Below are positions 16,350 to 32,408 of a stretch of DNA of 64,000 bases, piece after piece. A program made the translations under genes and the position numbers. Position 1 is the stretch's first letter; each line of letters opens with the position of its first letter. The notes under the pieces were generated by a model. The model worked only from the letters and a program-made list of their open reading frames with translations. It was not told the origin of the DNA and searched no databases. Source of the stretch: Escherichia phage vB_EcoM_EC001; the sequence record MN445185.1, one strand, 5' to 3'.

Positions 16350-19300
16350 TTAGGTACGGAACATAAGATTGACCTGGATAATATCAGGCTGTTGCCATCC
16401 TCTCTCGTTCACCCAATCGTGCGCAATCGTTAACGTAAGATCATCGCCATCCCACGCCACGATCGGTGGTGGGAATAAACCCTGAGCGCCCGTGGTAACA
16501 ACCGGAATTGCACCCGCCACATCCACAAACGTGTAGCTACGGCTGTTCAAAACAACTGGTGTGCCGTAGGTCTCTCCCCCCAATGGTAAGATTTGAATCT
16601 TACTATCCGAAAGATCGGTGGTGATTGGTAGTCCCCCCGCGTCCGTGAAAAGCCAAGAGCAAATATGCTGGTTGGCCATCTCAAGCGCTGGGGAACTCAA
16701 CACAGCAGCGAAAGTAAACGTACATGGCACGCCTGCGGGCAGAGAATGCTGTTTGTGATACACGGTATGTGGTGTCGGCATTAACACTTCTGGATTTTCA
16801 TCAATGTTAACATCCTTACCTTCCGCCTCGACGTTGTAGAGAAATCTATCTACCGTATCCCATGGGGCGATGTTGACATTAAAGGTCGTTTCTACTCCCG
16901 GTGTACCTGGGACGACGAATTTACTTTGTATCACCACTATCATCATTCCTGAGGTCGGAGAGAAAGCAGGCGTAGGGATACCCACCCACTCCATTCCCAA
17001 CGATGCCGCTTCACCGTTCTCATCGGCCGTTACCGTCGCAATTGTTGTAGGATGTTTCCAAAACGCCCCCGACTTGTTTGCCTGAGTAAACGCCGGCAAA
17101 GTTTTCAAGCCTTCGAAACGTTTGGAGACCATCGGTTTACCGCGACGCTGTGCGTCAGATACGGTATAAAGCAACTGACTATCCAGATAGCCTTTCGTAG
17201 CATCGATCGACAAAGGACCCATCGCTTCTTTACGCAATGGTGCCAGTCTGCCCGTTGCCGCATCCCTTCCCACTTCCACATCATGCTTATTCTCAACCGC
17301 CGCATGTTCCAACAGTTGTTTCACCGCACCCAATCGCTTAGCATGTTCGACGTTAGTCTCGACGACTCGCGACGAGCCCGTTTTAACATACCCGATATAG
17401 AGTTCCGTTTCAGTGTCTGGATGTTGAACCACGTCCATTACGTACTTCGGTGTACCATTTTCTACCTTGGCGTGCAGGTAGAATGTCCGGTTCTGATGGT
17501 TTGTTGGAAATGCTGCGCTGAGGTCAATATACCACGTAGGCAGCTTATAAGTGCTCGAGCCGAAACGCAGGTCAACTTCCTCAGTCACATATACCAGCCA
17601 ACCTTCAGCTGTTTCCACACCAGCAATGACGACCGATTCAGTCGGGCCACTAAAATTAGGAGCCGCGACAAAATCTCTCGACGACGTTGCGATACCACCA
17701 CAATAGACGTAGTCGAGAGATGAGTTGTGTAACATCACTTGATCGCGATGTGCCAGATAAGCTGGACTGACTGGAGTGTGTGACGGTGCCATACGTCCAA
17801 CGCCGTGTGCGGCAGAAGAACGCGTCCAAGTACCATTAGACAGCGTAAGACCAACAGCGTAGTTAAGCGCACCCAAGTCGCCAATCAGGCGCAAGGTTAA
17901 CGTGTGTGGAAGATACAACCCGAACTGCGTACCATCTACCGACACCATGGTAGGTTGTCCCGGCCGGCGTGTTTTTCCTCCCGTTATCTCTCCCAACGTA
18001 GCATAGTTCAAGCCATAGTCGAGGTTGTTATAGAAGTCAAACAATGCCAATATCGCTGCCGGGAATGTTACCTGCCCGTTGCTGATTGTTGGTTTCAGTG
18101 TAAAGTAGTAGATATCCAACACGTTAACGTTGTTCACAGTACGCGTACATGCTACTTGTGCTAACGTGAGCGGTGTGGCCGTACCAATGCCGATGAACCA
18201 AACAGAGAACAGTGCCTTTCCTGCGTTATTTGCGGCAAGGATATATTCCGAAGCATAACCATTCGCAGCGCCTGCCGGTGCTCCGTCGATGATCATCTGC
18301 TTCATCTTATTCCATTCAGCTTGTGACAGCGTCAACCGATCGGCATGAATCGTGAAAGTGCCAGAAACGTTGTGGTAAGGGAATGTTTCTGGCCCTGTGC
18401 AATACCAGCCGTTTAACTCTGTACCAGGCGACGCCGGTGTAACAATGTGGCACATCTGCGACAGATTCTCGTACGTGGTAGAATCCACTACACGACGATT
18501 GTTAGTTGGTCCATACCCCACTTTACCTGAGTAAGTGGTGTTCGGATCAAACTCAACCTCAATTGCCAAACGGGAACGTGGCTGTGACAACCAGATAAGT
18601 CTGGAATTCGCTCCCAGAGTCAGTGGATACGCCATACCCAGCTCGTAGATAGAACCACGACCTTGGTTTAACGTTACCGCACTAAACCTTCTGGCAGTGA
18701 AGTTGTAGTCGCACGACAGGTACTCGTACCAACTCACACCGTCGTCTAACGTGGTAATCGTGACAATTGGCATTAGGTCACGATCGCTGGCATGTCCTTG
18801 CGAAACGATATATTTGTCTTGCGATGTTGCAAAGGTTTGGTTATTAGCTTGACCTTCGCCCCACTTCCGGCTCGGAATCCCAATCTCAGCACCACCGTTA
18901 TAACGAACCGCGGTAAGATCAGCCACAATAGGGAATCGATCAGCCCCTTCCAGCGTTACCGTCATTGAACTGCAATCAACAACAAAGCTTGACACCCATT
19001 GTTTAAAGCTAATCGTCTGCCCTGTGCTGGAGGCAAACCAGACTGTTGGCGTTAAACCAACACGAAAGTTCAGCCCATCAACACCAATCGCGTGATTACA
19101 CTCAGGACCATGTACAAAGTTAGTTGCATTGTTCCACTTCGCTAACGCGTCTGCGTAGATCTGTGTAACTGGTGCTGGGAGCGCATCGGAAGGTGCACGT
19201 TTCTGTCCCTGTCGCAGATAAACGTTTTCACCCGACGTTAATATCCCGCCTGTTAACGCATCCGCCACAAACGTGTTGCTACCACCCGGATTAAGTTCGT

Positions 19301-21533
19301 TGAGTGCGATGCTACGCATACTCACGAAATAGTTACCGGAGGTAAGCACCGTACGCAACAGGTAGACACGTTCATTACAAACAATCAAATCGTCTGTAGA
19401 AGCGTTTGGAGCCCACGGTGCTGTCGTTACTGTGCCCGCACCATTACCGTTCTTGTAATCACCCAACACCACTTTAACAACACGATGATGTTTTGCATGG
19501 TCAATCGTCCCATCGAAGATGACCAGGTAGTACGCACCGTCACTGCCTAAGCAGATCATTGCATCGGTACCGGTAATCACAATAGCAACCAGATTCACCC
19601 CAGGATACGCCGACATTCCAGCGGGTCGATAGCGTACGGACGTCTGCTGCATATTTTCCAGCGTATTGCTTGGCGACACATCAGCATAGGCGTAATAGAT
19701 AGCCCAGTCACCTGGTGGATTCCCGTTAGAACCGTTACGGAGCGAGTAAACCTTACCAGACTCGTAACGCGCCAAACCTTTCTGCCAGGTTTGGTTTTTG
19801 GTGTACCCTTCGTAGTTCCCCTGGACAGGTATAGGCAAGAAGTTATTGTTGCCGTACGATGATCCGCCAACGGTCCATGCTGGCAACAACGTAGCAATCT
19901 TGTCGTTCAGTGTACCGATTTTCTGTTCGAGCAAGAAACCCTGGCGGGCAGTAACCATCTTATCTGTTGTGGTGTCAATAGCGTCCCACAGTTTAGCCAA
20001 ACCTGTAACAGACGTGGATGCGTACGGCACGTTATCGAGATCGGCAATGGTGTGGGTGTGCGTTGAGAGTGCCTTGCCTGATAGCACGGTGCGCAACGCA
20101 TTAGTAACCGGTTTCTCCAGCGGTCCGGTATTGTTCATCTTCTCAATACCGAAATCCGACGCGGTTAAGGTTAAATGCATTTGCCCGTTTTCGTCTAACA
20201 CAAACCCTTTACCATTGACCGTATACGTGTCGTCCACATATCCGTCGAGTTTGTTCTTCAAGTCAGTAACAGCTTTTTGGGAAATCGCTGTGGACGCCGC
20301 GGCGGACGCCGAAAGGTTAGTAATCGCAAACAAGCCCTGCACAGTTGTGGTTGCTGCAGGCAGCTCCGCATTCATGTAAACTTTGTTTGTTTCTTTACCA
20401 GAGCCGTAAATCTTCAACGTGTCGCTGGATTTGAAGTAGGCGTTTGCTGGAAGTATCTTCACCGAGGTCAAGTACATCTTAACCATATCCGGTGTAACGA
20501 GATACACGCCGTTATACACAGGTGCAAGCACACCCGCATCATAATCGCCCCATTTGTCACCTGCTTTACCCGAGTGAACCCAAAGCGTGTTCAGACCAGC
20601 GCTGAACTCCGTAGCGATACCCGGTTCGTTGTTATCCTGATCAGCTTTTAATACCAGCGGTTTTGTCGAGGTGATAATGAACTTCTCACCTTTCATGCTG
20701 ATAACGTGACCGGATGTTGTTTGGAACGTAATCGCGTCGTTATTCAGAACACGCATACGGCCCAGTAAATCACCCAGGGTATTATCCAGAAGCATGTCAA
20801 CGTGTTTTTGTTGGATGCCGCTGGTAGACATTAACGTCACTAACTCTGCCAGGGTACGTCCAAACGCCTTGGTCGCATCTACGGCCTTGCCGAGTACCGG
20901 GAGTGCGCCAATGTCACCGCAGGTGTAACCATGTGCATTTTTAATCAGATGGTGTTGATACATTTCGTCATCAAACACCTGCTTACCGTTCTGATAAATC
21001 AAATCGGTAACTTCGGCAAATGCCTCATCCAGTTCGTGGGCACGTTCTAAAATGCCCAGTCGGATATCTTCCAGCGCCTTTACAATCTCATCGCGAAGGA
21101 TGGCTTCTTCGAGATCTTTTGGCGGATCGATTGGTGAAATGATCGGCGGATATTTCATCAACTCAGACCAATCGCAGTTACGCGGGTCTTTCATATCCGT
21201 CTTAACCAGATACTTGCCGATTTCAGAAGCAGGGATGCGATACTGTCGACCAACCGACAACAACTCGTATTCTAGCTCTGTGGCGTTCAGCAGCATTATG
21301 CTGCCGTATATTGCATCGTTCTCAGCCTCGGCTAATTCCTGGAAGTAATGTCCTAAGAAATAATCAAGACCTTCTATTAACTTGCGTTTGGTTCCGGTTG
21401 TTTTATCGGTAACGGTTAACGTTAACCCGATGCGATAGAACGGTGCTTCGACGGGAATGACCGTCGAATAACGGTTCGGGTAAGTAGCGGTACTGAGGGT
21501 ACCGTTAAACTGCGCCGCATCTTCTCTCGGCAT
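16350..21533 (-). CDS. Very large virion protein (tail fibre/tailspike-like), about 1727 aa
   Basis: Start at MPREDAAQ with AGGAG upstream; N-terminal domain paralogous to those of 21629..25759, 25772..29485 and 15100..16302. Confidence 0.7.
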   Translation of the reverse strand: MPREDAAQFNGTLSTATYPNRYSTVIPVEAPFYRIGLTLTVTDKTTGTKRKLIEGLDYFLGHYFQELAEAENDAIYGSIMLLNATELEYELLSVGRQYRIPASEIGKYLVKTDMKDPRNCDWSELMKYPPIISPIDPPKDLEEAILRDEIVKALEDIRLGILERAHELDEAFAEVTDLIYQNGKQVFDDEMYQHHLIKNAHGYTCGDIGALPVLGKAVDATKAFGRTLAELVTLMSTSGIQQKHVDMLLDNTLGDLLGRMRVLNNDAITFQTTSGHVISMKGEKFIITSTKPLVLKADQDNNEPGIATEFSAGLNTLWVHSGKAGDKWGDYDAGVLAPVYNGVYLVTPDMVKMYLTSVKILPANAYFKSSDTLKIYGSGKETNKVYMNAELPAATTTVQGLFAITNLSASAAASTAISQKAVTDLKNKLDGYVDDTYTVNGKGFVLDENGQMHLTLTASDFGIEKMNNTGPLEKPVTNALRTVLSGKALSTHTHTIADLDNVPYASTSVTGLAKLWDAIDTTTDKMVTARQGFLLEQKIGTLNDKIATLLPAWTVGGSSYGNNNFLPIPVQGNYEGYTKNQTWQKGLARYESGKVYSLRNGSNGNPPGDWAIYYAYADVSPSNTLENMQQTSVRYRPAGMSAYPGVNLVAIVITGTDAMICLGSDGAYYLVIFDGTIDHAKHHRVVKVVLGDYKNGNGAGTVTTAPWAPNASTDDLIVCNERVYLLRTVLTSGNYFVSMRSIALNELNPGGSNTFVADALTGGILTSGENVYLRQGQKRAPSDALPAPVTQIYADALAKWNNATNFVHGPECNHAIGVDGLNFRVGLTPTVWFASSTGQTISFKQWVSSFVVDCSSMTVTLEGADRFPIVADLTAVRYNGGAEIGIPSRKWGEGQANNQTFATSQDKYIVSQGHASDRDLMPIVTITTLDDGVSWYEYLSCDYNFTARRFSAVTLNQGRGSIYELGMAYPLTLGANSRLIWLSQPRSRLAIEVEFDPNTTYSGKVGYGPTNNRRVVDSTTYENLSQMCHIVTPASPGTELNGWYCTGPETFPYHNVSGTFTIHADRLTLSQAEWNKMKQMIIDGAPAGAANGYASEYILAANNAGKALFSVWFIGIGTATPLTLAQVACTRTVNNVNVLDIYYFTLKPTISNGQVTFPAAILALFDFYNNLDYGLNYATLGEITGGKTRRPGQPTMVSVDGTQFGLYLPHTLTLRLIGDLGALNYAVGLTLSNGTWTRSSAAHGVGRMAPSHTPVSPAYLAHRDQVMLHNSSLDYVYCGGIATSSRDFVAAPNFSGPTESVVIAGVETAEGWLVYVTEEVDLRFGSSTYKLPTWYIDLSAAFPTNHQNRTFYLHAKVENGTPKYVMDVVQHPDTETELYIGYVKTGSSRVVETNVEHAKRLGAVKQLLEHAAVENKHDVEVGRDAATGRLAPLRKEAMGPLSIDATKGYLDSQLLYTVSDAQRRGKPMVSKRFEGLKTLPAFTQANKSGAFWKHPTTIATVTADENGEAASLGMEWVGIPTPAFSPTSGMMIVVIQSKFVVPGTPGVETTFNVNIAPWDTVDRFLYNVEAEGKDVNIDENPEVLMPTPHTVYHKQHSLPAGVPCTFTFAAVLSSPALEMANQHICSWLFTDAGGLPITTDLSDSKIQILPLGGETYGTPVVLNSRSYTFVDVAGAIPVVTTGAQGLFPPPIVAWDGDDLTLTIAHDWVNERGWQQPDIIQVNLMFRT

Positions 21534-21567
21534 TGCAAACACTCCTAATCTGTAATAAAACGGAGAC

Positions 21568-21625
21568 CGCCCTCCCAATAACGGAAGGGCGGTTTACCTA
21601 CGGACTACCCGCCCGTAGGCAGTCC
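21568..21625 (-). terminator. Hairpin region between two large minus-strand genes (possible attenuator)
   Basis: ACCGCCCT...AGGGCGGT stem (21568-21575, 21589-21596) followed on the minus strand by CTCCGTTTTATTAC. Confidence 0.4.
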
Positions 21626-21628
21626 GTC

Positions 21629-24600
21629 CTAAGAGGCCCACTCACCCGAGTTGTTGCCTTCGTTTCTACGTTCAGTATCCAACGTTTGTAAAATCCAATC
21701 CCATGTCCTGGTGGGGATGTGGAATGGATTACGCTTCTCAATGAGAATCGTCTCGCCACCCGTGCGAAGTTCCACCGGTGTCGTTTCAGTAATCACGAAC
21801 ATCGGATTACCACTACTACCCACACCGTTAATAGTGAACTTCGCTTGTAGCGGCGGCACAGAACCTTCCGGAGGCACGAACACGATGTGAATTGGCTGCA
21901 TCGGTTTCGTGCGGGCAAGAGTCCCAGATATCTGAACAGCTGTTGTCGATGCACTGAAAGGTATAACATTACCCGGAATTTTCTCACTACCCACGACGAT
22001 ATATCCAGGGTAGTTAGAGAGCATTGTCCCATTTACCGACACAAAACGCTCAGTTTGAGTTGGGCGATAAGCCCGCATAAAGCCGTACTTCCATTCACCA
22101 CCGTTAGACGTATAGTCTGCAGGAGCCGACTCAAGTAGCGGAGCACCACGTTTCTGCAGCCCTTTATAAAACGGCGCTGGGAGTTTACCGTTCGGTGCAA
22201 GTTCCGGATAACCCTCACTTGCAGCAGACATCGTGATGTATTCCGTAACCGGGTGATCAACGTTATCTCCAAATGACGCAAAAGGTACCGTTGTTACTGT
22301 CATCTCCTCGTGGCCGGAAGACTGTCTATCTGGTGTCCTTTCAATATACGACTCAAACAGTGAACGTAAATAATGGAAACGATTTATATCCACATCTGAG
22401 ATGATCGGCTGCATCAAACCGTGGTTAATAGTCACGTTGTCTCCAGTTTCAATACCGGAAACGTGGATGGCTAGCGCCCCACCTTTAAAGTAATCGATCG
22501 CATCAAACGGAATGTCGTATTCCATTTCGTAAACCTGCACCAGCGGATTGGCTATCAACTTAGAAACCATTGAGATGCGCAGTACCTGCGTATCAACAAT
22601 GTATCGATAACGTACAAGCCAACGATCTCCAAGCGGCGCAAGCTCACTATCGGTATGAACCGAAAGAAAATCTAAACACTCGGTAGATTGGCTCGTCAGG
22701 TTTTTAATTACCCTCGGATTTTCAAGCACCTTATTTGTAACACTGCCCTGCGTGGTCGAGATGATGCCTCCAGTTGCTTGGTTATAAGGAGACGTGATGA
22801 AGCCACAATTCAATTCTGGACGATTGCCACTCCATCTCAGTACCCTAGTCTTGCTTTTATCATCTGCAGACGGGGCCATGAAGTTTAATGTGATATCGCG
22901 ATCGCGAACAGTTTGCGCTTCCGACAAATCAACATCGACCACCACAGAACCTTCAAACGTCGCCATCCCTTTTTCTTTCGGGTTGCTTGGTGTAAACCAG
23001 CAGTACGGTGATGCGCTTTCTGTGGAGACAACCGCTCCAACAAACACTAGGCTTGAAATGGTGCTATCAAATTTATAATCGAATAACCCTCGGTCTAATC
23101 GAATATAGTGGTTACCAGAAACTGGACTATTAGGGTACGCATAAAGCCACTGTTTAGGCAACGGATCGACTTTGTTTAGCGGTAACATTTTTGGGTTATC
23201 CGTCAACGACCAGTCGGCATTACTCACTCCGTGTGCCAGACGTGTTTCGAAGTGCCGTTTAAGTTCGGACGCCATGCCAAAATCAAACGTCGTTTCAAAC
23301 TCGTAAGTCGTACCTGCAACCAATCCCGTCTCTGGTACATCAATATGTCCGATATAGCCGCGTTCCAAGTTAATACCTTCCGTGTCCACAATAGGTTCGG
23401 CGCGCGAATATAACGCATCGGTTATCATGTTCACATAGAGGTAATGCCTTAAACCATTCGGCGTCTTAACAAACTCCTGCAGGCGGGCAACTTTGGTGTT
23501 TTTATCCGAGGCCCCAACCGCAAAGTCACCGTCGTAAATTGTGAAACGAATTGCGGCTGCTTTAGCGCTATCGTTACACTCGGCACGGAATGCTAAGCAG
23601 TGTTGCTTCCACCCCTCCTTGACAGTCGCCTCCAGATACCCCGCTTCTGTAATACCCGCACCGATAATTTCACCGTCCAGATAAACAGAAACAGCACCAC
23701 CGCCACGAACCCAAATCCGCAGCTTACCAGAGTCGCAACGAACCCACGTTTTCGCCAAGAGGTTAACGACTGACAAATCACCCATTCCGGTTGTCGTTAA
23801 ACCAATCTGCGCACCGTAGTTCGTTTCCGGGACGGCAACCTCAAACCCACTAAAATCAATACCGGCACCGGTATTAATTACCGCGTTCTGCCACGTTCTT
23901 TCCATACGGTTATCTGGAGAGAACCACTGGAACATCGGTGTGGTTTGCAGGTCTATCGAACCAGATACCGTCCCCTCTTTACGTGCGCCATTTAACAGAT
24001 AGAAATAATTCAAATCCGTTATGGCGAGTGTGGTACGTGCTGACCCCACAGTCCAAGTCTTACCACGCACAGCGGCAAAATCGGTCACGGAATCCTCTTT
24101 CGCGTTTGCTAGCGCAGCTGCAACTACGTCTAAACGTTTTGACAAATCGTTCAGAACGTTCGGGGTAACGCCGCGATTACCCGACAAGCCGTTTAGGTTG
24201 GTAGAATATCGAGCGATACCGGGAACTGTTTGAGAAGCCGTTGGGATCTGTAAATCGGCGAAGTTGTGATGATGGCCTTTATCGCTAAGACCGGTAACTG
24301 CTTCTGCCAACGCATCAGAAAGTGGTTTATCGACGTCAGCTGTGTTATCAGCCAAGTCCAGACCCAAATCCTTTTTCGTTAGCGTTCGGCTACCAGTGTC
24401 CATCGGCTGGTTATTCAGCAGCGTTGTCTTCCTGACGTACGAAGACAGATCACCCTCGTACGGTAAGAGCGAAGCTGGGGTGGCTGCTTGTCCTTTGACT
24501 ACATCGCTCGGCTTATCAGTCAGCGTCACAACGCCGGGTTCAGAGGTCGTGGCGGGTTTGGCTGTAACCTTCCCGGTGACGGGATCGGCTTTTGACCCTT

Positions 24601-25759
24601 TGCCCGTGAAAGTAATACCGTTCACCCCGCTAATGTACAGTTTGTTGTCATCCGGGTCAACGGTACCGCCGCCGGTACCAGGGTCTTGTTGATAGCCCAT
24701 GAGAGCGGTGGTGGTCAGCAACGTTGTTCCGTTAAGTGTCAGCTTATCCATCCCCAAGGCACTGCCGGTTGACTCAATACGTAACGTATTGATGCCTGCT
24801 TTCCACTCCATAAACCGGACGGTTCCAGTAGTGTCAGCATACCCACACGCCAGCACGACAGAGCCATTAGATTTAAGAGTGAATGCCTCAGCAGAGAACA
24901 CAATTTCGGATTCGCCAGCAGGAGAACGGAACAGGGCACGAGTACCAGATATCGTCGCGTTAAACACCCCTTTGGATTCTTTCGATACCCATTTAGAAAT
25001 GTACTTGTCGATATCCGATTGTTGCAGGCCCAGTGCACGGACCTCGCTGGTTAATTGACGCAACGTCTTTCCATACGCCAGGAAAGTATCTGGCGTTTTC
25101 AGGTTGACAGGATGCGCCCCGGCCTGCGCCGCGGTAGTCCCATGAGGGTTAGTGGACGCAATGTGTCCGGGGTAGTTAAATGTGGCGATTTCAGTTCCTA
25201 AGCCCAGAACCGTATCTTTCAGCTCGGTAAGCTTTTCACGAATCTGCTCGTTGGCCGCCCCGGCATCTAACTCCACATCATGCACTGCAGAGGCAACATA
25301 CTTTTTATTCAGCATGTCTGACCAAGCTACCGCTGCGGGGGTGGCTGGGTACAGGGAAGGTCGATTACCTAAAAGCAGCCAATCTGCAGCCGTTGGATTG
25401 TTGAGAGCCTTAATTAACTCATCCAACATCTCAATCAGACCACTGTAAAACGTACCCCCGAGCATCTGGCCTTCAAAGACCACTGCACCACGCAGTTTAG
25501 GGTTAATAAGATGCACCCCACAGAACACCGGGGTCGTCACCGAGTCGTCCAACGGCGTTAAAGCATACTCCAGCTCATAGTCCGTCCCGCGGGTAAGCGG
25601 TATGGTCGAGCCGGCGAGCATTACCACCAATCCTTCGAAAAATGGGCGATGATCTAGCATCACCACCCGATCGTTAGGATTGTCGGAGTCGATGATACGT
25701 TCCTCGATGAAGTGACACTCGGGATTTACACCCCGAGGATCGTAAGGATACGTTTTCAT
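21629..25759 (-). CDS. Very large virion protein (tail fibre/tailspike-like), 1376 aa
   Basis: RBS AAGGAG; N-terminal LTRGTDYELEYALTP shared domain. Confidence 0.7.
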   Translation of the reverse strand: MKTYPYDPRGVNPECHFIEERIIDSDNPNDRVVMLDHRPFFEGLVVMLAGSTIPLTRGTDYELEYALTPLDDSVTTPVFCGVHLINPKLRGAVVFEGQMLGGTFYSGLIEMLDELIKALNNPTAADWLLLGNRPSLYPATPAAVAWSDMLNKKYVASAVHDVELDAGAANEQIREKLTELKDTVLGLGTEIATFNYPGHIASTNPHGTTAAQAGAHPVNLKTPDTFLAYGKTLRQLTSEVRALGLQQSDIDKYISKWVSKESKGVFNATISGTRALFRSPAGESEIVFSAEAFTLKSNGSVVLACGYADTTGTVRFMEWKAGINTLRIESTGSALGMDKLTLNGTTLLTTTALMGYQQDPGTGGGTVDPDDNKLYISGVNGITFTGKGSKADPVTGKVTAKPATTSEPGVVTLTDKPSDVVKGQAATPASLLPYEGDLSSYVRKTTLLNNQPMDTGSRTLTKKDLGLDLADNTADVDKPLSDALAEAVTGLSDKGHHHNFADLQIPTASQTVPGIARYSTNLNGLSGNRGVTPNVLNDLSKRLDVVAAALANAKEDSVTDFAAVRGKTWTVGSARTTLAITDLNYFYLLNGARKEGTVSGSIDLQTTPMFQWFSPDNRMERTWQNAVINTGAGIDFSGFEVAVPETNYGAQIGLTTTGMGDLSVVNLLAKTWVRCDSGKLRIWVRGGGAVSVYLDGEIIGAGITEAGYLEATVKEGWKQHCLAFRAECNDSAKAAAIRFTIYDGDFAVGASDKNTKVARLQEFVKTPNGLRHYLYVNMITDALYSRAEPIVDTEGINLERGYIGHIDVPETGLVAGTTYEFETTFDFGMASELKRHFETRLAHGVSNADWSLTDNPKMLPLNKVDPLPKQWLYAYPNSPVSGNHYIRLDRGLFDYKFDSTISSLVFVGAVVSTESASPYCWFTPSNPKEKGMATFEGSVVVDVDLSEAQTVRDRDITLNFMAPSADDKSKTRVLRWSGNRPELNCGFITSPYNQATGGIISTTQGSVTNKVLENPRVIKNLTSQSTECLDFLSVHTDSELAPLGDRWLVRYRYIVDTQVLRISMVSKLIANPLVQVYEMEYDIPFDAIDYFKGGALAIHVSGIETGDNVTINHGLMQPIISDVDINRFHYLRSLFESYIERTPDRQSSGHEEMTVTTVPFASFGDNVDHPVTEYITMSAASEGYPELAPNGKLPAPFYKGLQKRGAPLLESAPADYTSNGGEWKYGFMRAYRPTQTERFVSVNGTMLSNYPGYIVVGSEKIPGNVIPFSASTTAVQISGTLARTKPMQPIHIVFVPPEGSVPPLQAKFTINGVGSSGNPMFVITETTPVELRTGGETILIEKRNPFHIPTRTWDWILQTLDTERRNEGNNSGEWAS

Positions 25760-25771
25760 TCAAAAATCTCC

Positions 25772-28700
25772 TTAATCACGAATAATAAGTGTTCGACCTG
25801 ACGTGTTTTGCGGATTGAACGTCATCATCTTGGATGGGTGTGTCGCCAGCGGAATTTTACCTGTATCCACTGGTCGGAACGAACTGTATGAATAGTTGCA
25901 CATCGCGCTGTTCATCTCATTAATCGTTGAACCTGCTTCCACCACGCCAGTAAAGAATCTTGCGCGGTTTAAGCCGGAATAGTTAATCGCATAGTCAAGG
26001 AACGTGGCGTAATAACGATTCTTTATCGGCATCGTGTTCAGGTTAGCGTAAGTCAAACGCGCTTCTGTGTCGGAACTAAACAAACCACCCGCGCCGTGAT
26101 AAATCGGCGTACTCGGATCGGTAATCAGTTTCGTCAAGTCGATATAATCAGGACGGAGACGGGTAGACAAATCCTCAGTCCACGACTCGCCGGTCGACTG
26201 CAAGGTGTATCTCAGCGTCTTTGTTGTCGCGGTTAGCGTCAGCTCAAAGTTGATCGTTTTGGAATCGATGTTAATCGTTCCCTCGAACGAAATACCGTCC
26301 GCTGTTCGCGTGTGGCTGAAACGCACCGACGGATTAAGTGCCGTCCAGTCATGGCCGGAACCAGTAACACCATTCAAGCCAATAACAACCTGCGCAGCAC
26401 GTCCGTAGTTAACCGCGATTCCCGCATACGTGCTCACGCCGCCTGGAGTGGTAATACGCCCTGCGGTGCGTGCGACGAGTACAGAAATACGGTGCATGAA
26501 CGTGGCCGAGTGATGGCAACACCCAATTACCGTTTCTAGCACACTGTCCGCTGTTGCGGTTAAAGGTGTCCACGTTGCGGTAATGCCGTTATTCTGGAAC
26601 ATCGGGAATGTGTTGTGGACAAAACGATAATCGGTTACAGATAAACTGGTTGTTTTAAACGTCCATTTATCAGCAGCCGGATCGTAGTCCGCTTTCAACA
26701 TAGGCGTATAGCTGCTAGCCTGCGCGTAACGCCAATCAGCATCTATACGTTTTGTACCCGGTGCGCCCGTGGACCACACAGGCCCGCCTGTACCGTAAGT
26801 AAATCCGAATTCAGCTTGCGTCATGCTCCGTCGAATATGGGCGTTATCATCCTCGATATGCTCGCCTAATTCACGAAACTCACCTAAACGCGTCACGTTG
26901 CGGATTTCTACAAAAACCACACCGGTTTCACTGGTGATGATGGAACCTATTTTGGTCATCGTCTCAGTTTCTGCCGTGTTTGGATTTTCGTAGATAATGT
27001 ACTTGCCATCATCGCCCGCCGCGTCAACATACACGCCAAACTCAGCATCTTCGTGCGTCGCTGGGAATAGCTCCGCCAAGTTAAATGTGGAGAGAGGTAC
27101 TTTGTACTCGCGACCAACGAAATAATCGTTCGCTTTAATAGTAACCATCCAGTCGGTGTAAGTGATGCCGTTTTCAATGATATCCGTGCCGGGTAAACCG
27201 TAACGAATAATGTTGATTGAAGCACCAGAGTCGACTGTCTTCGCAACCTTCTCTATCTCTGTGATAGCGTCCGCCTGTCGGATGACCACACCGCCGTCTA
27301 ATGCCAGCGTGGCATCGTCAACCACGGTGCCGAACTGTACTAAACCGAACTCCGTCGTTGTTGCACGCTTAATCCCGAACGCAGCAGAAGTGTGTTTGTG
27401 ACCGACGACTGCATACTTGTCCAGCTCAGCTTGTTGGAGCGGGGAAATCGGCAATTGCACATCTGGGATGTTCTGTACGTTCGATAAGCCGAAGTTAGTT
27501 TTATCGATGTAAATAGAACTCGTCAGTGGCATGTCGTTGATGTACGATTTAACGGCAACCAACTTGCCCGTAAACTGCTGATCCAATTTCTTGATGAGTG
27601 CCGGCGTTGCGGCCAAGTCCTCACGATCACCGAATTCAGTAGCCAACAAACGGACAGCCATCAGGCCAAGGTCGTCGGACTCCGGTGGAACAAAAGTACA
27701 AATGAACGGAACAGACTGAATACCGTTACCGTTAATAGTTACAGTAGCTGTGGATGTTCCGTAAAACAGTCCATCACCACCTGACTCGTTACCCGGCAAA
27801 TACGGCCCGACCGTAGTAGGGTCCAACAGTTTCTTACCGTTGAACTCCAATCCACGGGAATCCGGATAAAGGATGAGTTGGTTAGCACCGCCTTGCCATG
27901 TGATCGGGTTGTTCCCGGCGTTAACGGTTTGCGAATCGCGTCCAATAAAACGGATAACCCTCGGGTCAACCGTGAATTGTGCACCCACGCCTTCAGACTC
28001 ATCGGTACCCACTGCCGACGTTATCGAAGTCAGGCCAGGCTTCATACCGAACGTGCCGTTGATAGACTGTGCAGCCGCCGGTAAACGTAAAAGCTTATTC
28101 GCCAGCGTTGACAGTTTCGGCAACAGATTGTTAACGTAATCTGTCAGCTGCGGTTGCGTTTTTCCGTATACCAGTGTCGCGTCCGAAGCAATACCGTTAT
28201 TCTCCAAAGCACGGATTGCGCCCCACGAATCGCGATGTGGGTTATCCTTGCGCGGCACGTGCGCATGTGCCGGCGCATCACGGTACAGTTTATCGACAAT
28301 CTGGTGATATTTTACCAGCAGCTGGTACACGTCATTGTTAACGTCAGGTGCCGGTGCGCCTGGTAATGAACGAATCTGGACGTAATCGTTCTCACCTGCC
28401 CACCAGTTTAGGTTGACGCCCGATTTAAACTTCAACCATTTTGCGACATCAGTTTTCTGATACCCTGGTGCAAATTCGCTCGGTGGGTTGTCAACGTTAA
28501 AGCTGTAGTTAACGGTTTGCTTACTTGTTTTAACGATAATGTCGTAAACGCCGTTACCTTCGCGTCTGACCACGCTAAGCTCAATATCACCCGCCAACTC
28601 GGTATCGGTCAGGCCAGTCGTCAACGTATAGCTGTAATTAGACGAACCAGAACCAATCGCCGTCGTTAAGGTAAGATAAATCGCGCGTTGCTTCAACTGA

Positions 28701-29485
28701 AGACGCAGGATACTTGTCCCACCGTTTGCGTAACAGAGCATCCAATCGATCAACTCGCCTGGGTTTAACGTTGTTTCCGGTGGAATGCTCGGTAAACGGT
28801 ATTTTACCGCTAACGAATACGCATCGAATGTCGTATTCTGGTAAGATAACGAATAACGACGACGTGACGCGTTATACGTGTAGCCGCCAGTACCGTCGTA
28901 CGTCGCATACTGCTCGGATGTGATAAGCGTGACGCCGGCGCGATATTGAAGGTCTAACGTGTTACGAGCAATCGGGTCAACGCGACTGATCGCTTCACCG
29001 AGCTTAGCACCAACCGCAACAATGGCTTCCATCAACTCAGATTCGCCACGCCAGTTTTCCCAATCGAACTTAATATCGACCGGTGGGAAATATAAATCCC
29101 CAATGACATTATCCCATTGGCAGTCTACGGGATAGCGATCTTTATTCGCTTCTCGTTCTGCGGCGATCATTTCTGCAGTGGCTTCACCGATACCAATTGC
29201 ATGGTAATCGAGTGTAAAGCCACTCTGATATTTCGGGTTGGTAATCCACACGCCGCCGTGACAAACATGGCCAGTGCGTGCCATGCCCGTAACGTACGCA
29301 TGGGTGATGACGTAATCATCACCTAATGTTAATTTCTTGCCGCCACTCTTGACCACCAGGGATGTGGTATAAAAGGGGGCGTGTGCGGGGAACAGCATCC
29401 GGTACTTAGTACCGATCGGCGTTACCGCTTCACCGGTCTGCATATTCCCCGGTTCTTGATAGTGCGGGTCAGGGACGACAGCCAT
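25772..29485 (-). CDS. Very large virion protein (tail fibre/tailspike-like), 1237 aa
   Basis: RBS AAGGAG; first gene of the minus-strand operon; shared N-terminal domain (PFYTTSLVV...LGDDYVITHAY). Confidence 0.7.
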   Translation of the reverse strand: MAVVPDPHYQEPGNMQTGEAVTPIGTKYRMLFPAHAPFYTTSLVVKSGGKKLTLGDDYVITHAYVTGMARTGHVCHGGVWITNPKYQSGFTLDYHAIGIGEATAEMIAAEREANKDRYPVDCQWDNVIGDLYFPPVDIKFDWENWRGESELMEAIVAVGAKLGEAISRVDPIARNTLDLQYRAGVTLITSEQYATYDGTGGYTYNASRRRYSLSYQNTTFDAYSLAVKYRLPSIPPETTLNPGELIDWMLCYANGGTSILRLQLKQRAIYLTLTTAIGSGSSNYSYTLTTGLTDTELAGDIELSVVRREGNGVYDIIVKTSKQTVNYSFNVDNPPSEFAPGYQKTDVAKWLKFKSGVNLNWWAGENDYVQIRSLPGAPAPDVNNDVYQLLVKYHQIVDKLYRDAPAHAHVPRKDNPHRDSWGAIRALENNGIASDATLVYGKTQPQLTDYVNNLLPKLSTLANKLLRLPAAAQSINGTFGMKPGLTSITSAVGTDESEGVGAQFTVDPRVIRFIGRDSQTVNAGNNPITWQGGANQLILYPDSRGLEFNGKKLLDPTTVGPYLPGNESGGDGLFYGTSTATVTINGNGIQSVPFICTFVPPESDDLGLMAVRLLATEFGDREDLAATPALIKKLDQQFTGKLVAVKSYINDMPLTSSIYIDKTNFGLSNVQNIPDVQLPISPLQQAELDKYAVVGHKHTSAAFGIKRATTTEFGLVQFGTVVDDATLALDGGVVIRQADAITEIEKVAKTVDSGASINIIRYGLPGTDIIENGITYTDWMVTIKANDYFVGREYKVPLSTFNLAELFPATHEDAEFGVYVDAAGDDGKYIIYENPNTAETETMTKIGSIITSETGVVFVEIRNVTRLGEFRELGEHIEDDNAHIRRSMTQAEFGFTYGTGGPVWSTGAPGTKRIDADWRYAQASSYTPMLKADYDPAADKWTFKTTSLSVTDYRFVHNTFPMFQNNGITATWTPLTATADSVLETVIGCCHHSATFMHRISVLVARTAGRITTPGGVSTYAGIAVNYGRAAQVVIGLNGVTGSGHDWTALNPSVRFSHTRTADGISFEGTINIDSKTINFELTLTATTKTLRYTLQSTGESWTEDLSTRLRPDYIDLTKLITDPSTPIYHGAGGLFSSDTEARLTYANLNTMPIKNRYYATFLDYAINYSGLNRARFFTGVVEAGSTINEMNSAMCNYSYSSFRPVDTGKIPLATHPSKMMTFNPQNTSGRTLIIRD

Positions 29486-29552: not shown

Positions 29553-30815
29553 GTGACTACTGCTTATCAAGTGCGGGCCGACAGCGCTTTTGGCTTCTCT
29601 CGAGACACCCGAACTTGGGGAACCATCGATGTCACGCAGCCCTTAAATACCCTTTGTGCTAACTACCACCTTTTCGAAGTAGGACTAGAAGCACTAGGTG
29701 CTGAATATACCTTCTATAGCCAGTATCACCTGGCTGATTTACAAAACCGTACGGACACGTTGCAAGATTGGTTAAACACCAAGTCAGGAATCGCGATTCC
29801 AACGCTTGGGAAGGGCCTACCGAAGCTCGAATTCGTTGAGGCACACTACCAGTCTATTAATGCAGATGTGCCCGTAGAAACGCACCTGTGCCCTCCTGGT
29901 TACCATTACACTCAGGACTTCAATCCCGATGATGCACACGACGTTGTTGTAGTCTGCGACGATGAGTGGAAAGAGAAATACCGTACCGGGGTACTGTACA
30001 ACATCAACGGTCAATGGGTACCTCACCAATCTGACCCAGTGGGTGTTCGCTTAACCGGCGCTGGTAACATCGTGCGGCGTGCCAATACGCCAGACATTGG
30101 CTGTCTGGTGATGGCAAACATCGGTAAAGTAAAGACCTACCCCATATCCGGTTTAACGATGAACAAACTCGATACTACGCGAGATTACTATTCTTCGTTA
30201 ATGTTGACCTTACCCGATTCCATTACAGGGAAAACCGTTGGGTTCGTCATCGGGGGTATTCTGCATTGGTTGCCACCGCAGGGCTATTTCAGCGACCGTG
30301 CGATTATGCTGAGTCTGCCAAACCTTAGCGTGGCGAAGATTGTATTGGAAACCCGTCGCTATTACGATTGGGACGCCATCGGTGTAGGTGATTTAAGTAC
30401 GCCTACGTCCGTTCAACGTATTCGTAACTCAGAAACGTTAAAAGCGCTGCTGACGCACGAATCCTCGTTTATCTTTACGATAGACAACCCGTATCTCGAA
30501 AAAGAGATTCACGGAATAAGCCACAACGCTATCTGGGGCCGGTTCTATTTAAAAGACCCGACTGACCCAGATGGGAAGAAGACGCTAGGTCCTATCTTTA
30601 ACCGTATTGGTAAATGTGTAGGGTACTGGCCGACCTGGGAAGAAGGGGAGTGGGTCTTTAATACCACATTCTTCGACCGGGAAAACTTTTTGTTGGGGAA
30701 CGCGCGTTGGTATAACCAGAATTTGGTAAACGACGCGCAGGCAATCGTCGGGCCTTTCGGGGCTTGGGGTAAGCCGTTTGTTGAAATGCATCGCTACAAA
30801 GCACGAAAAAAATAA
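29553..30815 (+). CDS. Hypothetical protein
   Basis: 420 aa, GTG start after RBS AGAGGA; divergent from the minus-strand operon; followed by terminator 30821..30864. Confidence 0.55.
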   Translation: MTTAYQVRADSAFGFSRDTRTWGTIDVTQPLNTLCANYHLFEVGLEALGAEYTFYSQYHLADLQNRTDTLQDWLNTKSGIAIPTLGKGLPKLEFVEAHYQSINADVPVETHLCPPGYHYTQDFNPDDAHDVVVVCDDEWKEKYRTGVLYNINGQWVPHQSDPVGVRLTGAGNIVRRANTPDIGCLVMANIGKVKTYPISGLTMNKLDTTRDYYSSLMLTLPDSITGKTVGFVIGGILHWLPPQGYFSDRAIMLSLPNLSVAKIVLETRRYYDWDAIGVGDLSTPTSVQRIRNSETLKALLTHESSFIFTIDNPYLEKEIHGISHNAIWGRFYLKDPTDPDGKKTLGPIFNRIGKCVGYWPTWEEGEWVFNTTFFDRENFLLGNARWYNQNLVNDAQAIVGPFGAWGKPFVEMHRYKARKK

Positions 30816-30820
30816 AAGGT

Positions 30821-30864
30821 AAACCCTACTCCCGTTGGGAGTAGGGTACCTATATCTTTTTTTT
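30821..30864. terminator. Bidirectional intrinsic terminator
   Basis: CCCTACTCCC-GTT-GGGAGTAGGG hairpin followed by TTTTTTTT; A-run upstream. Confidence 0.7.
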
Positions 30865-30877
30865 GCCTGCAGGCCGA

Positions 30878-31087
30878 TTACGCGTTTACGTAATAGATGG
30901 CGTTGCCGAACATTTTGTTGTTGCCGCCACAAGCGGTAACTTTAAATGCTACGCCGCCTTCAGCTTCGGCTTTCTTAGCCAGCGCTTCGGTAACTTCGGT
31001 AACGGTGCTCAGTCCAGAAACCTGAACGGTGCCTGCTTCTACCAGACCAGAAACGTCGCTGCCTGCGGTGATTTCACGAATGCTCAT
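30878..31087 (-). CDS. Small DUF1471-like (YdgH/BhsA/McbA-type) domain protein without signal peptide
   Basis: GTVQVSGLSTVTEVTEALAKKAEAEGGVAFKVTACGGNNKMFGNAIYYV follows the pattern of enterobacterial BhsA-family C-terminal domains; RBS GGAG upstream. Confidence 0.55.
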   Translation of the reverse strand: MSIREITAGSDVSGLVEAGTVQVSGLSTVTEVTEALAKKAEAEGGVAFKVTACGGNNKMFGNAIYYVNA

Positions 31088-31180
31088 TTACTTATCTCCA
31101 TTAACAAATGATAGCAGAAGAACCCTATGTTCAACTACTTGTACTTCGAGGCATATTAACTGCCCCGACTCGTAAATTAG

Positions 31181-31269
31181 TTGACAATAAACCGGCTTTT
31201 GTGCGAAAAAAGTGGCTAACTGTGCACAAGCGATTCGGGTTATCGTTACAGTTAGGAGGTTTATTGTCA
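31181..31269. repeat. Inverted repeat TTGACAATAAACC ... GGTTTATTGTCA in an intergenic region
   Basis: 12-bp arms at 31181-31193 and 31258-31269 separated by about 64 nt, upstream (minus-strand sense) of the DUF1471-like gene. Confidence 0.4.
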
Positions 31270-31295
31270 CAATATACAGCTCACACGTAATTAAA

Positions 31296-32228
31296 TTAGT
31301 GCGGTGTGCTAGTGTCGTTGCCCGGACCATGGCCAGTATGTACGTGAAGAGTAAAGGTGATGCCGCCGATAACCGATTCGGTAACTGTGAAAGTGCCCTT
31401 ACCTTCACCCTTGCCGTTATAGAGGAAATCTTTACCTACTTCCAGGTTACCGGTAAATAGATTCGTTGGGCATGTGGTCTTCCAGTCTTCAGTCGTCCAT
31501 GCCACGTTTTTCGACGCTGTAGAGTTGCGAGTTTCGCACTTCTCGTTAATCGTTTTTGTCTCGAGATTAATAGAACGTTTAGCATAAATGAAAGCGTCCT
31601 CTTTATTGATATTAATCTTCGACCGGCAGGCGTTTTCAAACCCTAAGTCATCCTCCGGAGAATTGAGGTAGAACTTACGCCCTTCGTCATCCACTAACTG
31701 GCAAAACCCGTCACGGGTATTCAGCTGGAGCAAATACGCGTTTTTCTCACCGTTAGTCATACTGGTACGTAGAGTAATGTGACCATCCATCGGGGAGATA
31801 TTCAGTACGTAGGCGTTAGAGAGGTCATCGGCCATCTGGTTTACTGGGTCAGCAGACCAGGCGTATACCCCATCTTCCAGTCGCTTAACGTTACTGTTGT
31901 TTAAATCTTCCCAGAAGTACATATCGGTTTCACCGATACGCCAGATTCTTACGTAGTCTTCTTTTTTCACATCCGGAGGGTTAACCCGGTTGCTGTTGGA
32001 CTTCATCCATTTTGCAGTGATGGCATTACCTTGCTTTACAGTAAGGTTGTCAGCACCACTTAAACTGTTGTGTTGCTTCTCTACAGGTGTCTCTGTTGCA
32101 TCGACAGCTGTAGGATTAATAAAGTTAACTTCGATAGGGATGACTTTAACTCGAGTGGCACCACGAGGTTTATCTTCCGCGACGATACCTATCGAGAAGA
32201 TGTGCAACCCTGACTTAGATTTATTCAT
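31296..32228 (-). CDS. Hypothetical protein with His/Gly-rich C-terminus (possible structural protein)
   Basis: 310 aa; C-terminus ...ITFTLHVHTGHGPGNDTSTPH. Confidence 0.5.
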   Translation of the reverse strand: MNKSKSGLHIFSIGIVAEDKPRGATRVKVIPIEVNFINPTAVDATETPVEKQHNSLSGADNLTVKQGNAITAKWMKSNSNRVNPPDVKKEDYVRIWRIGETDMYFWEDLNNSNVKRLEDGVYAWSADPVNQMADDLSNAYVLNISPMDGHITLRTSMTNGEKNAYLLQLNTRDGFCQLVDDEGRKFYLNSPEDDLGFENACRSKININKEDAFIYAKRSINLETKTINEKCETRNSTASKNVAWTTEDWKTTCPTNLFTGNLEVGKDFLYNGKGEGKGTFTVTESVIGGITFTLHVHTGHGPGNDTSTPH

Positions 32229-32408
32229 ACCACCCTCCTCTCATACTACACTTTTTTACGTTTCGATCTCATCGTTTGACAATCGAGGAGTGTACGGGGG
32301 TAAGGGGGTTTATGTATTGGATGCGAACATAAACGGAGGTATCCGTAGGATACCGACATCCTTTTTGTAGTTGACCTTGACTTTTAACCTAACGAGGAGT
32401 GCAGTACC

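What the first reader, a model, noticed from the sequence alone, without database searches (positions are those of the whole stretch)
31296..32228. Protein with His/Gly-rich C-terminal tip (HVHTGHGPG)
The C-terminus ...GGITFTLHVHTGHGPGNDTSTPH resembles metal-binding apex regions of phage spike or fibre tips. Its placement next to the fibre operon makes a structural role plausible, but this is weak.
Basis: inference. Interest (0 to 1): 0.25.

Follow-up and report, generated by a model that had tools for sequence, protein, structure and literature searches.

The report
Jumbo-phage tail spike with iron-binding tip

Summary
The ORF is real: 31296..32228, minus strand, 310 aa, ending ...GGITFTLHVHTGHGPGNDTSTPH. 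The window is about 98% identical to Salmonella jumbo phage SPN3US, and the ORF is the ortholog of SPN3US gp173. Residues 6-223 are homologous to the solved central spike of phiKZ (gp164; E 3e-27 by sequence, Foldseek E 1.9e-16). A profile of the C-terminal 70 residues hits the solved Mu gp45 spike domain (E 5.6e-8), with its HxH aligned to Mu's HIH. H295 and H297 are invariant in 25 homologs down to 43% identity and lie 13 residues from the C-terminus (12 in P2 gpV). Published proteomics place SPN3US gp173 in the tail at low abundance. It is therefore the trimeric baseplate spike with a built-in apex, expected to hold an Fe ion in a cage of six histidines. phiKZ differs: its spike lacks HxH and carries a separate tip protein, gp163.1, for which I found no homolog here or in SPN3US-type phages. 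Only HxH is conserved; the extra histidines (H300, H310) and the GHGPG loop are lineage-specific. Verdict: interpretation supported, already known, low interest.

The parts
31296..32228 (-). Central baseplate spike gene (ortholog of SPN3US gp173 / SPN3US_0173; 310 aa, 34.5 kDa)
   Evidence: ORF. About 98% nt identity to SPN3US-like phages, where it is annotated 'baseplate assembly protein' or 'baseplate puncture protein'. PHROG 3216 'baseplate assembly protein', E 1.4e-122, full length.
32234..32240 (-). Ribosome-binding site GAGGAGG, 5 nt upstream of the ATG (spacer GTGGT)
   Evidence: Upstream 25 nt read AAGTGTAGTATGAGAGGAGGGTGGT.
31560..32213 (-). Residues 6-223: N-terminal OB-fold and central domains, homologous to the phiKZ gp164 spike
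   Evidence: phmmer against PDB 6orj/9xph, E 3.2e-27 over residues 6-223. Foldseek of the AF2 model: 9xph_I E 1.9e-16, 6orj E 3.1e-15. pLDDT 83-91 over most of residues 70-240 (68-78 for residues 111-140). The phiKZ atlas describes the gp164 OB-fold docking on the hub gp101.
31317..31502 (-). Residues 243-304: C-terminal beta-helix end plus apex domain, homologous to the Mu gp45 C-terminal domain
   Evidence: phmmer against 3vto/3vtn/9ki1_V, E about 2e-3. A C-terminal-only profile (A2) gives E 5.6e-8. Three homologs reach or nearly reach Pfam PF18715 'Phage spike trimer' just upstream of HxH.
31338..31346 (-). H295-V-H297: the HxH motif (predicted Fe-binding histidine cage in the trimer)
   Evidence: Invariant in 25 of 25 homologs. 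Aligns with HIH of Mu gp45. Lies 13 residues from the C-terminus, against 12 in P2 gpV (H197/H199 of 211).
31329..31331 (-). H300: an extra, lineage-specific histidine in the GHGPG loop that replaces the family consensus EQGDG
   Evidence: A comparable extra His is found in 4 other HxH-class sequences (6 of 68 in a listing that contains this protein twice). Function unknown.
30878..31087 (-). Downstream 69-aa gene (ortholog of SPN3US gp172; YdgH/BhsA/McbA-like domain). A neighbour that may be associated with the spike, but is not shown to be part of it
   Evidence: Pfam PF07338, E 3.3e-11. Conserved directly downstream of the spike gene in Erwinia phage Huxley and Cronobacter phage CR5 (49% and 45% identity) but absent in RAY. 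Reported as the smallest SPN3US virion protein, but no entry for it in the 2023 dataset.
30823..30847 (-). Intrinsic-terminator-like hairpin (11 bp, 7 GC, then a T-run) that closes the short minus-strand spike/gp172 unit

Best explanation
The ORF encodes the central spike (cell-puncturing needle) of the contractile-tail baseplate of an SPN3US-type jumbo phage. By homology, three chains form one spike per virion. The N-terminal OB-fold docks under the trimeric hub, the chains then intertwine into a beta-helix, and the last ~25 residues form a pointed apex. In that apex, H295 and H297 from each chain (six histidines) are predicted to enclose one Fe ion, which stiffens and sharpens the tip. When the sheath contracts, the tube drives this spike through the Salmonella outer membrane, and the spike is probably then shed into the periplasm. 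The tip is part of the spike polypeptide, as in P2 gpV, phi92 gp138 and Mu gp45. phiKZ differs: its gp164 spike lacks HxH and carries a separate tip protein, gp163.1. Shown here: the homologies, the invariance and position of HxH, tail location and low copy number (from published proteomics), and no detectable gp163.1-type gene. Inferred: trimer formation, Fe binding, and the piercing mechanism.
For: Identity of the gene: about 98% nt identity to SPN3US, ortholog of gp173, and the computed mass of 34.5 kDa matches gp173's 34.6 kDa. Spike homology: phiKZ gp164 at E 3.2e-27; Foldseek 9xph_I E 1.9e-16 and 6orj E 3.1e-15, followed almost only by other contractile-injection-system spikes (Anabaena and Algoriphagus eCIS, PVC, P1, phi92 gp138, VgrG, Mu gp45, R2 pyocin); PHROG 3216 E 1.4e-122. 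The phiKZ cryo-EM atlas assigns gp164 as the trimeric spike under hub gp101. Apex: the C-terminal profile hits the Mu gp45 crystal structure at E 5.6e-8 with HxH aligned to HIH. H295 and H297 are invariant in 25 homologs and the motif persists in Erwinia phage RAY at 28% identity. HxH lies 13 residues from the C-terminus, against 12 in P2 gpV. Published rule: a C-terminal HxH identifies an Fe-loaded Apex domain, and such spikes are proposed to lack a tip protein; Fe and Ca densities are seen in the Mu gp45 apex. Virion data: gp173 is detected in SPN3US virions at low abundance, averages 13 PSMs in wild type against 0 in tailless particles, and is classed 'Tail'. No separate tip: the phiKZ-type spike ends ...TAPRYDFT without HxH and is followed by an 88-aa Cys/His-rich protein 100% identical to PHIKZ163.1, annotated as PAAR-motif in several records. 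Homologs of that protein occur in 78 phage records, 73 of them Pseudomonas and none Salmonella or Erwinia, and none is found in this window. The two flanking small genes are not PAAR by Pfam.
Against: Fe binding is inferred from motif and homology and was not measured. Only 64 kb of a ~240 kb genome was scanned for a tip gene, and only with the phiKZ gp163.1 sequence, so a divergent PAAR-like protein elsewhere is not excluded. Pfam gives no hit on this protein itself. The apex loop GHGPG departs from the family consensus EQGDG, so its metal content could differ. One table in the 2023 proteomics supplement labels gp173 'Non-virion', while two others label it 'Tail'. In P2 the Apex domain is dispensable in laboratory infections, so the functional importance of the motif is uncertain even in the model system.
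Confidence: 0.88

Rival explanations
1. It is a phiKZ-style spike whose C-terminus is capped in the virion by a separate small tip protein. The cap could be the co-located 7-kDa gp172 ortholog or an undetected PAAR-like protein. In that case the HxH would only keep the three beta-helix chains in register and would not form the exposed apex.
For: In phiKZ the tip gene gp163.1 lies directly downstream of the spike gene. Here a conserved 69-aa gene occupies the same position, and SPN3US gp172 was detected in virions. HxH cages also occur inside fibres away from their tips.
Against: The gp172 ortholog is a YdgH/BhsA-like domain and not PAAR. The HxH lies 13 residues from the C-terminus, the same geometry as the P2 gpV apex. 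The C-terminal domain is homologous to the Mu gp45 apex-bearing domain. No gp163.1 homolog occurs in any Salmonella or Erwinia phage record. gp172 has no entry in the 2023 proteome dataset.
Confidence: 0.06
2. It is a tail-fibre or tailspike component (receptor-binding fibre tip) of the adjacent gp168-170 fibre/baseplate cluster, and the HxH is an intra-fibre metal site.
For: The gene lies next to the large paralog-family-C baseplate/fibre genes, and HxH iron sites are known in fibres.
Against: Full-length homology is to central spikes, with none to fibres. The N-terminal OB-fold region matches phiKZ gp164, which cryo-EM places on the baseplate axis. Abundance is very low, about 0.23 spectra per kDa against 1.0-1.4 for gp168-170, which fits 3 copies per virion and does not fit 18 or more.
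Confidence: 0.03
3. The protein is mainly an assembly plug that nucleates the hub and baseplate. The His-rich tail would then be a dispensable remnant that binds no metal in this lineage, because the conserved acidic EQGD loop has been lost.
For: The P2 Apex domain and histidine cage are dispensable for infection in the laboratory, while the spike complex as a whole is essential for baseplate assembly. This lineage's apex loop diverges from the consensus.
Against: Both cage histidines are strictly retained here and in every homolog examined, which indicates selection on the metal site. The assembly and piercing roles are not mutually exclusive.
Confidence: 0.03

Closest known systems
phiKZ gp164 central spike (PDB 6ORJ, 9XPH)
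   Same: Homologous over residues 6-223 (about 31% identity, E 3e-27) and the best structural match. Same role expected: a trimeric spike whose OB-fold docks on the hub of a jumbo-phage baseplate. Same PHROG (3216).
   Different: phiKZ gp164 ends ...TAPRYDFT with no HxH and is capped by a separate monomeric tip protein, gp163.1. This protein instead has a Mu gp45-like C-terminal domain with a built-in HxH apex, and no gp163.1 homolog was detected.
Phage Mu gp45 central spike (PDB 3VTO, 3VTN, 9KI1)
   Same: The C-terminal ~60 residues are homologous (profile E 5.6e-8). The HxH aligns with Mu's HIH, and both have the OB-fold / beta-helix / apex layout. The Mu apex holds Fe and Ca.
   Different: Mu gp45 is much smaller (197 aa) and lacks the large central domain shared with phiKZ gp164. 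No significant similarity was found in the N-terminal part. After the HxH, Mu has RGDSGG where this protein has TGHGPG, so the Asp conserved in the family consensus (GDG) is replaced by Pro.
P2 gpV / phi92 gp138 / R2 pyocin PA0616 'iron-loaded' spikes
   Same: Same design principle: spike and tip fused in one chain, with HxH 12-13 residues from the C-terminus forming a six-histidine Fe cage. These appear among the weaker fold-search hits (3pqi, 4s37).
   Different: No significant sequence similarity was detected directly. Those spikes are about 200 aa and come from small-genome myophages or tailocins.
T4 gp5 + gp5.4 and T6SS VgrG + PAAR
   Same: Same overall machine and the same position on the tube tip.
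   Different: Those spikes have a blunt beta-helix and need a separate PAAR-type tip. T4 gp5 also carries a lysozyme domain, which is absent here.

Membership tests
Jumbo-phage central spike family (phiKZ gp164-like; PHROG 3216) | Full-length sequence match to the family profile | tested here: met
   PHROG 3216, E 1.4e-122, residues 4-310 on profile positions 2-325 of 325. The family profile finds 1,512 representatives at 50% identity.
Jumbo-phage central spike family (phiKZ gp164-like; PHROG 3216) | Homology and fold match to the solved gp164 spike (OB-fold plus central domain) | tested here: met
   phmmer E 3.2e-27. Foldseek 9xph_I E 1.9e-16 (TM 0.51/0.57) and 6orj E 3.1e-15.
Jumbo-phage central spike family (phiKZ gp164-like; PHROG 3216) | Located in the tail at low copy number (3 per virion) | tested here: met
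   From the literature on the 99%-identical SPN3US gp173, not from this phage itself. It is low in abundance in virions (8 spectra). It gives 13 PSMs in wild type against 0 in tailless particles and is classed 'Tail'. The exact stoichiometry was not measured.
Jumbo-phage central spike family (phiKZ gp164-like; PHROG 3216) | Trimer on the baseplate three-fold axis under the hub | not testable with these tools
   Only monomer prediction is available. No SPN3US baseplate structure was found in the library.
Apex-domain ('iron-loaded', HxH) spikes: P2 gpV, phi92 gp138, Mu gp45, PA0616 | [quoted passage not shown] | tested here: met
   H295-V-H297, 13 residues from the end; P2 gpV has H197/H199 of 211.
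Apex-domain ('iron-loaded', HxH) spikes: P2 gpV, phi92 gp138, Mu gp45, PA0616 | Strict conservation of both histidines among homologs | tested here: met
   Invariant in 25 of 25 homologs at 43-75% identity. Present in RAY at 28% identity.
Apex-domain ('iron-loaded', HxH) spikes: P2 gpV, phi92 gp138, Mu gp45, PA0616 | Sequence homology of the C-terminal domain to a solved apex-bearing spike, with the HxH in register | tested here: met
   Profile A2 against Mu gp45 3vto, E 5.6e-8, HvH aligned to HIH.
Apex-domain ('iron-loaded', HxH) spikes: P2 gpV, phi92 gp138, Mu gp45, PA0616 | Octahedral Fe ion bound by six histidines in the trimer | not testable with these tools
   Needs a trimer structure or metal analysis. 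The monomer model has pLDDT 60-70 in this region.
Apex-domain ('iron-loaded', HxH) spikes: P2 gpV, phi92 gp138, Mu gp45, PA0616 | No separate PAAR-type tip protein | tested here: inconclusive
   No gp163.1 homolog in the window or in any Salmonella or Erwinia phage record, and the flanking small genes are not PAAR. However, only one tip query was used, and the rest of the ~240 kb genome lies outside the window.
PAAR-capped blunt spikes (T4 gp5, phiKZ gp164 sensu stricto, VgrG) | Spike C-terminus lacks HxH and a PAAR-like gene is adjacent | tested here: not met
   HxH is present. The adjacent gene is YdgH/BhsA-like and not PAAR.
Tail fibre / receptor-binding tip | Homology to fibre or tailspike proteins, and peripheral multi-copy location | tested here: not met
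   No fibre proteins among the sequence or fold hits. Abundance is far below that of the gp168-170 fibre candidates.

The most novel reading that the evidence does not exclude
In the SPN3US genus the apex is not a standard one. The conserved acidic loop after the iron cage (HxH-x-EQGDG, whose Asp aligns with Mu gp45's GD) has been replaced by G-H-G-P-G. In the trimer this would put a second ring of three histidines (H300) just beyond the Fe cage, which could form a second metal site or change how the tip meets the membrane or LPS. The conserved, adjacent, virion-detected 7-kDa YdgH/BhsA-like protein (gp172) might be a new kind of spike-associated factor occupying the genomic slot that phiKZ uses for its tip protein.
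Probability: 0.1. Interest if true: 0.35.

Novelty: already known. Interest (0 to 1): 0.12.

Why it matters
It matters little beyond annotation. The result turns a 'putative structural protein' or generically named 'baseplate assembly protein' of SPN3US-type phages into a specific part: the central membrane-piercing spike with an integral iron-binding apex. It also shows that phiKZ-related jumbo phages use interchangeable tip solutions on a shared spike body: a built-in HxH apex here, and a separate tip protein in phiKZ. That is useful for interpreting future SPN3US baseplate maps and for engineering, but the HxH rule, the phiKZ spike structure and the tail location of gp173 are all published.

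Tried and rejected
- Pfam on the protein itself gave no family even at E <= 1. Only some homologs reach PF18715.
- Rfam on the locus (30700-32900) gave no match.
- The sigma-70 promoter scan found no more sites than chance. This is expected, because these phages use their own RNA polymerases.
- The AF2 monomer model was adequate for the N-terminal and central parts but gave only pLDDT 60-70 for the apex region, so I drew no conclusion about apex geometry from it. A trimer could not be submitted, because the tool takes one chain and only unmodified window or database sequences.
It gave nothing significant and I do not rely on it.
- I tried to check which residues bind Ca in Mu gp45 (Harada et al. 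2013, PMID 22922659). The paper is not held, so the idea that the family's conserved Asp is a Ca ligand remains unverified.
- Fibre-tip reading: rejected, because all homology is to central spikes.
- gp172 as a PAAR-like tip: rejected as a PAAR protein on Pfam evidence. Not excluded as some other spike-associated protein.
- Fragmentary, high-scoring hits in SPFM phage records (P0028, P0029, P0035, P0040-42) were left out of the alignments as probable frameshifted gene calls.

Full report
**1. The observation**

The ORF at 31296..32228 exists on the minus strand. It has a strong ribosome-binding site, GAGGAGG, 5 nt upstream of the ATG, and a computed mass of 34.5 kDa.

Four of its seven histidines lie in the last 16 residues (hypergeometric P = 1.5e-4). 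So the histidine clustering is real and unlikely to be chance.

**2. Where the window comes from**

A 2-kb stretch around the gene is 96-98% identical to 33 phage records. Nearly all are Salmonella jumbo phages of the genus Seoulvirus (SPN3US, JN03, SEGD1, the SPFM series), plus 'Proteus phage 7' and an E. coli isolate.

The ORF is the ortholog of SPN3US_0173 (gp173). It is annotated 'putative structural protein' in the original record, 'baseplate assembly protein' in RefSeq, and 'baseplate puncture protein' in Proteus phage 7.

Its neighbours are:
- the three giant paralogous baseplate/fibre proteins gp168-170 (16350..29485, minus strand);
- the essential tail protein gp171 (29553..30815, plus strand);
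- a 69-aa gene, gp172 (30878..31087, minus strand);
- a run of plus-strand genes of unknown function starting at 32409.

**3. What the protein is**

PHROGs gives a full-length match to phrog_3216 'baseplate assembly protein' (E 1.4e-122). Pfam gives nothing on this sequence.

Against the sequences of solved structures there are two separate matches:
- Residues 6-223 match 'PHIKZ164' (6orj, 9xph) at E 3.2e-27.
- Residues 243-304 match the C-terminal domain of phage Mu gp45, the 'baseplate puncturing device' (3vto, 3vtn, 9ki1_V), at E about 2e-3. In that alignment HVHTGHGPGN lies against HIHRGDSGGT.

An AlphaFold2 monomer model built on 25 homologs has mean pLDDT 75. It is confident (83-91) over most of residues 70-240, with a dip to 68-78 at residues 111-140, and weak (60-70) over the last 70 residues. 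That weakness is expected for a region that folds only as an intertwined trimer.

Foldseek against the PDB returns the phiKZ baseplate central region (9xph_I, E 1.9e-16) and 'Central spike of phiKZ phage tail' (6orj, E 3.1e-15). The next hits are almost all central spikes of other contractile injection systems: Anabaena and Algoriphagus eCIS, PVC, phage P1, phi92 gp138, a T6SS VgrG, Mu gp45 and the R2 pyocin spike.

The 2026 phiKZ cryo-EM atlas identifies gp164 as the trimeric spike. [quoted passage not shown]

**4. The C-terminal motif**

In an alignment of 25 full-length homologs (43-75% identity), H295 and H297 are invariant.

A profile built from only the last 70 residues of 15 of these proteins hits the Mu gp45 C-terminal crystal structure at E 5.6e-8. 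The family's HxH aligns to Mu's HIH.

The motif also persists in Erwinia phage RAY at 28% identity (...GHLHGGVQKGGSETGGPV).

The literature states the rule explicitly. In P2 gpV the Apex domain (residues 191-211) holds an Fe ion in an octahedral cage made by three copies of H197-x-H199. [quoted passage not shown] Spikes without it carry a PAAR-type tip. Mu gp45 and the Sf14 needle are described the same way.

Here the HxH ends 13 residues before the C-terminus. That is the commonest spacing in the family, and P2 gpV has 12.

Three close homologs reach or nearly reach Pfam PF18715 'Phage spike trimer' immediately upstream of the HxH.

**5. A built-in tip here, a separate tip in phiKZ**

The phiKZ-type spike (phage SL2 gp177, the gp164 homolog of a close phiKZ relative) ends ...LFTAPRYDFT and has no HxH. 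It is followed by an 88-aa Cys/His-rich protein that is 100% identical to PHIKZ163.1 and is annotated 'PAAR motif' in several records.

A tblastn search with that tip protein finds 78 phage records. Seventy-three are Pseudomonas phages and none is a Salmonella or Erwinia phage. Nothing in this window matches it.

Consistently, tblastn hits of the window protein in Pseudomonas phiKZ-like phages stop at about residue 222. Hits in Salmonella, Erwinia, Cronobacter, Aeromonas and Klebsiella jumbo phages run to the C-terminus.

An exhaustive profile search finds 1,512 family representatives at 50% identity. Of the best 150, 36 have a C-terminal HxH, against a chance expectation of about 1.5%. The rest end in other recurrent ways...APN[VI] (33)...SHGGPPCC (4)...SHGPH (3), and others.

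So the spike body is shared and the tip is modular. This phage uses the P2/Mu-style fused apex. A jumbo-phage example of an HxH spike, OBP gp146, is already shown in the P2 paper.

**6.

SPN3US gp173 (34.6 kDa) was identified in purified virions at low abundance: 8 spectra, about 0.23 per kDa, against 1.0-1.4 for the fibre candidates gp168-170.

In the 2023 dataset it averaged 13 PSMs in wild-type virions and 0 in tailless 255(am107) particles, and was classed 'Tail'. One other table in the same supplement lists it as 'Non-virion'.

Low abundance plus tail location fits three copies per virion.

The probable docking partner is SPN3US gp64. It is the homolog of phiKZ ORF101, which the atlas shows to be the hub. 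The gp64 amber mutant is tailless.

**7. Mechanism**

The following steps are inferred from the solved homologs.
1. Three gp173 chains form one spike.
2. The OB-fold end plugs the hub at the tip of the tail tube.
3. The chains intertwine into a beta-helix that narrows into an apex.
4. Six histidines (H295 and H297 from each of the three chains) cage an Fe ion, which keeps the tip rigid and narrow.
5. On sheath contraction the tube drives the spike through the outer membrane.

By analogy with P2, the spike ends up in the periplasm.

In P2 the apex is dispensable under laboratory conditions, and spike diameter is what matters. So the strict conservation of HxH probably reflects fitness on natural hosts more than an absolute requirement.

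**8. What is particular to this lineage**

Only the HxH is conserved. Nearly all close relatives read HxH-x-E-Q-G-D-G-x-D-V-S-x-P-x, whereas SPN3US-type phages read HVH-T-G-H-G-P-G-N-D-T-S-T-P-H.

An extra histidine within six residues of the cage is found in 6 of the 68 HxH-class sequences listed. That listing includes this protein twice, as WINDOW and as its own cluster representative P0001, so 4 other sequences carry one. Examples include HFHDGVHGP and HTHTGVHGE.

The Asp of the consensus GDG aligns with the Asp of Mu gp45's GDSGG. The Mu apex also contains a Ca ion thought to be involved in membrane binding. I could not verify which residues bind that Ca, because the paper is not held.

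Whether H300 forms a second metal site is therefore open. This is the only mildly unusual element, and I rate it as unlikely to be important.

**9. Comparison and novelty**

The protein is a member of the phiKZ gp164-like spike family: the sequence, fold and virion-location criteria are met. It belongs to the functional class of apex-bearing, iron-loaded spikes: the motif, position, conservation and homology criteria are met. Fe binding and trimer geometry could not be tested here, and the absence of a tip protein was only partly tested.

It is not a PAAR-capped blunt spike and not a fibre.

All the elements are already in the literature or in database annotation.

Noticed in passing
window 30878..31087 (-): A 69-aa gene directly downstream of the spike gene (ortholog of SPN3US gp172) is a bare YdgH/BhsA/McbA-like (DUF1471) domain (Pfam PF07338, E 3.3e-11), with no obvious hydrophobic N-terminal signal sequence on reading the sequence. 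It keeps this position in Erwinia phage Huxley and Cronobacter phage CR5 (49% and 45% identity) but is absent in RAY. SPN3US gp172 was reported as the smallest virion protein in 2017, but has no entry in the 2023 proteome tables. I do not know of this enterobacterial stress-protein domain being reported in a phage virion, and it sits where phiKZ has its spike-tip gene.
   Followed up: partly
family representatives P0043-P0188, not in the window: The gp164-like spike family has modular C-termini. Of 150 representatives, 36 end in an HxH apex, 33 end in a conserved ...(I/V)xAPN(V/I), 4 in ...SHGGPPCC, 3 in ...SHGPH and 5 in ...GPSxTI. The Cys-Cys and His endings could be alternative metal-binding tips, and the APNV ending could be a docking site for a separate tip protein.
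   Followed up: partly
window 31088..31295 (-): The spike gene and the 69-aa gene are separated by an unusually long 208-nt spacer (252 nt in Huxley, 310 nt in CR5). It has short conserved blocks (GCCACTTTTTTCGC, TAGGGTTCTT), a hairpin followed by a U-run, and a modest folding z-score of -2.5. There is no Rfam match. It probably holds a terminator and/or a phage promoter between the two genes.
   Followed up: partly
window 30823..30847 (-): A strong intrinsic-terminator-like hairpin (11 bp, 7 GC, T-run) lies right after the 69-aa gene, in the convergent gap with the gp171 ortholog. A near-identical stem sequence (CCCTACTC...GAGTAGGG) appears in the Huxley spacer.
   Followed up: no
SPN3US gp64 (outside this window); SPN3US gp64 was listed in 2016 as a 'head, possible neck protein' and as the homolog of phiKZ ORF101. 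The 2026 phiKZ atlas shows gp101 to be the baseplate hub (T4 gp27-like). That would explain why the gp64 amber mutant is tailless, and it makes gp64 the likely docking partner of this spike.
   Followed up: no
PDB entry 36za chain qs: A 362-aa chain labelled 'Tail terminator gp51' matches this spike protein at E 3.8e-10 over residues 68-286. The deposited name looks inconsistent with a spike homolog, and the source phage was not identified.
   Followed up: no
P0001 and P0013 clusters: Proteins 99% and 63% identical to the spike are recorded as 'hypothetical protein [Salmonella enterica serovar Bareilly / Chester]' on contigs of 245 kb and 221 kb. These are whole jumbo-phage genomes sitting in bacterial assemblies, from a carrier state or from contamination.
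   Followed up: no
SPFM phage records (P0028, P0029, P0035, P0040-P0042): Several SPFM Salmonella phage records carry fragmentary or aberrant versions of this gene (182-295 aa, high bit score but only 19-34% of the query covered). This suggests frameshift or assembly errors in those deposits.
   Followed up: no
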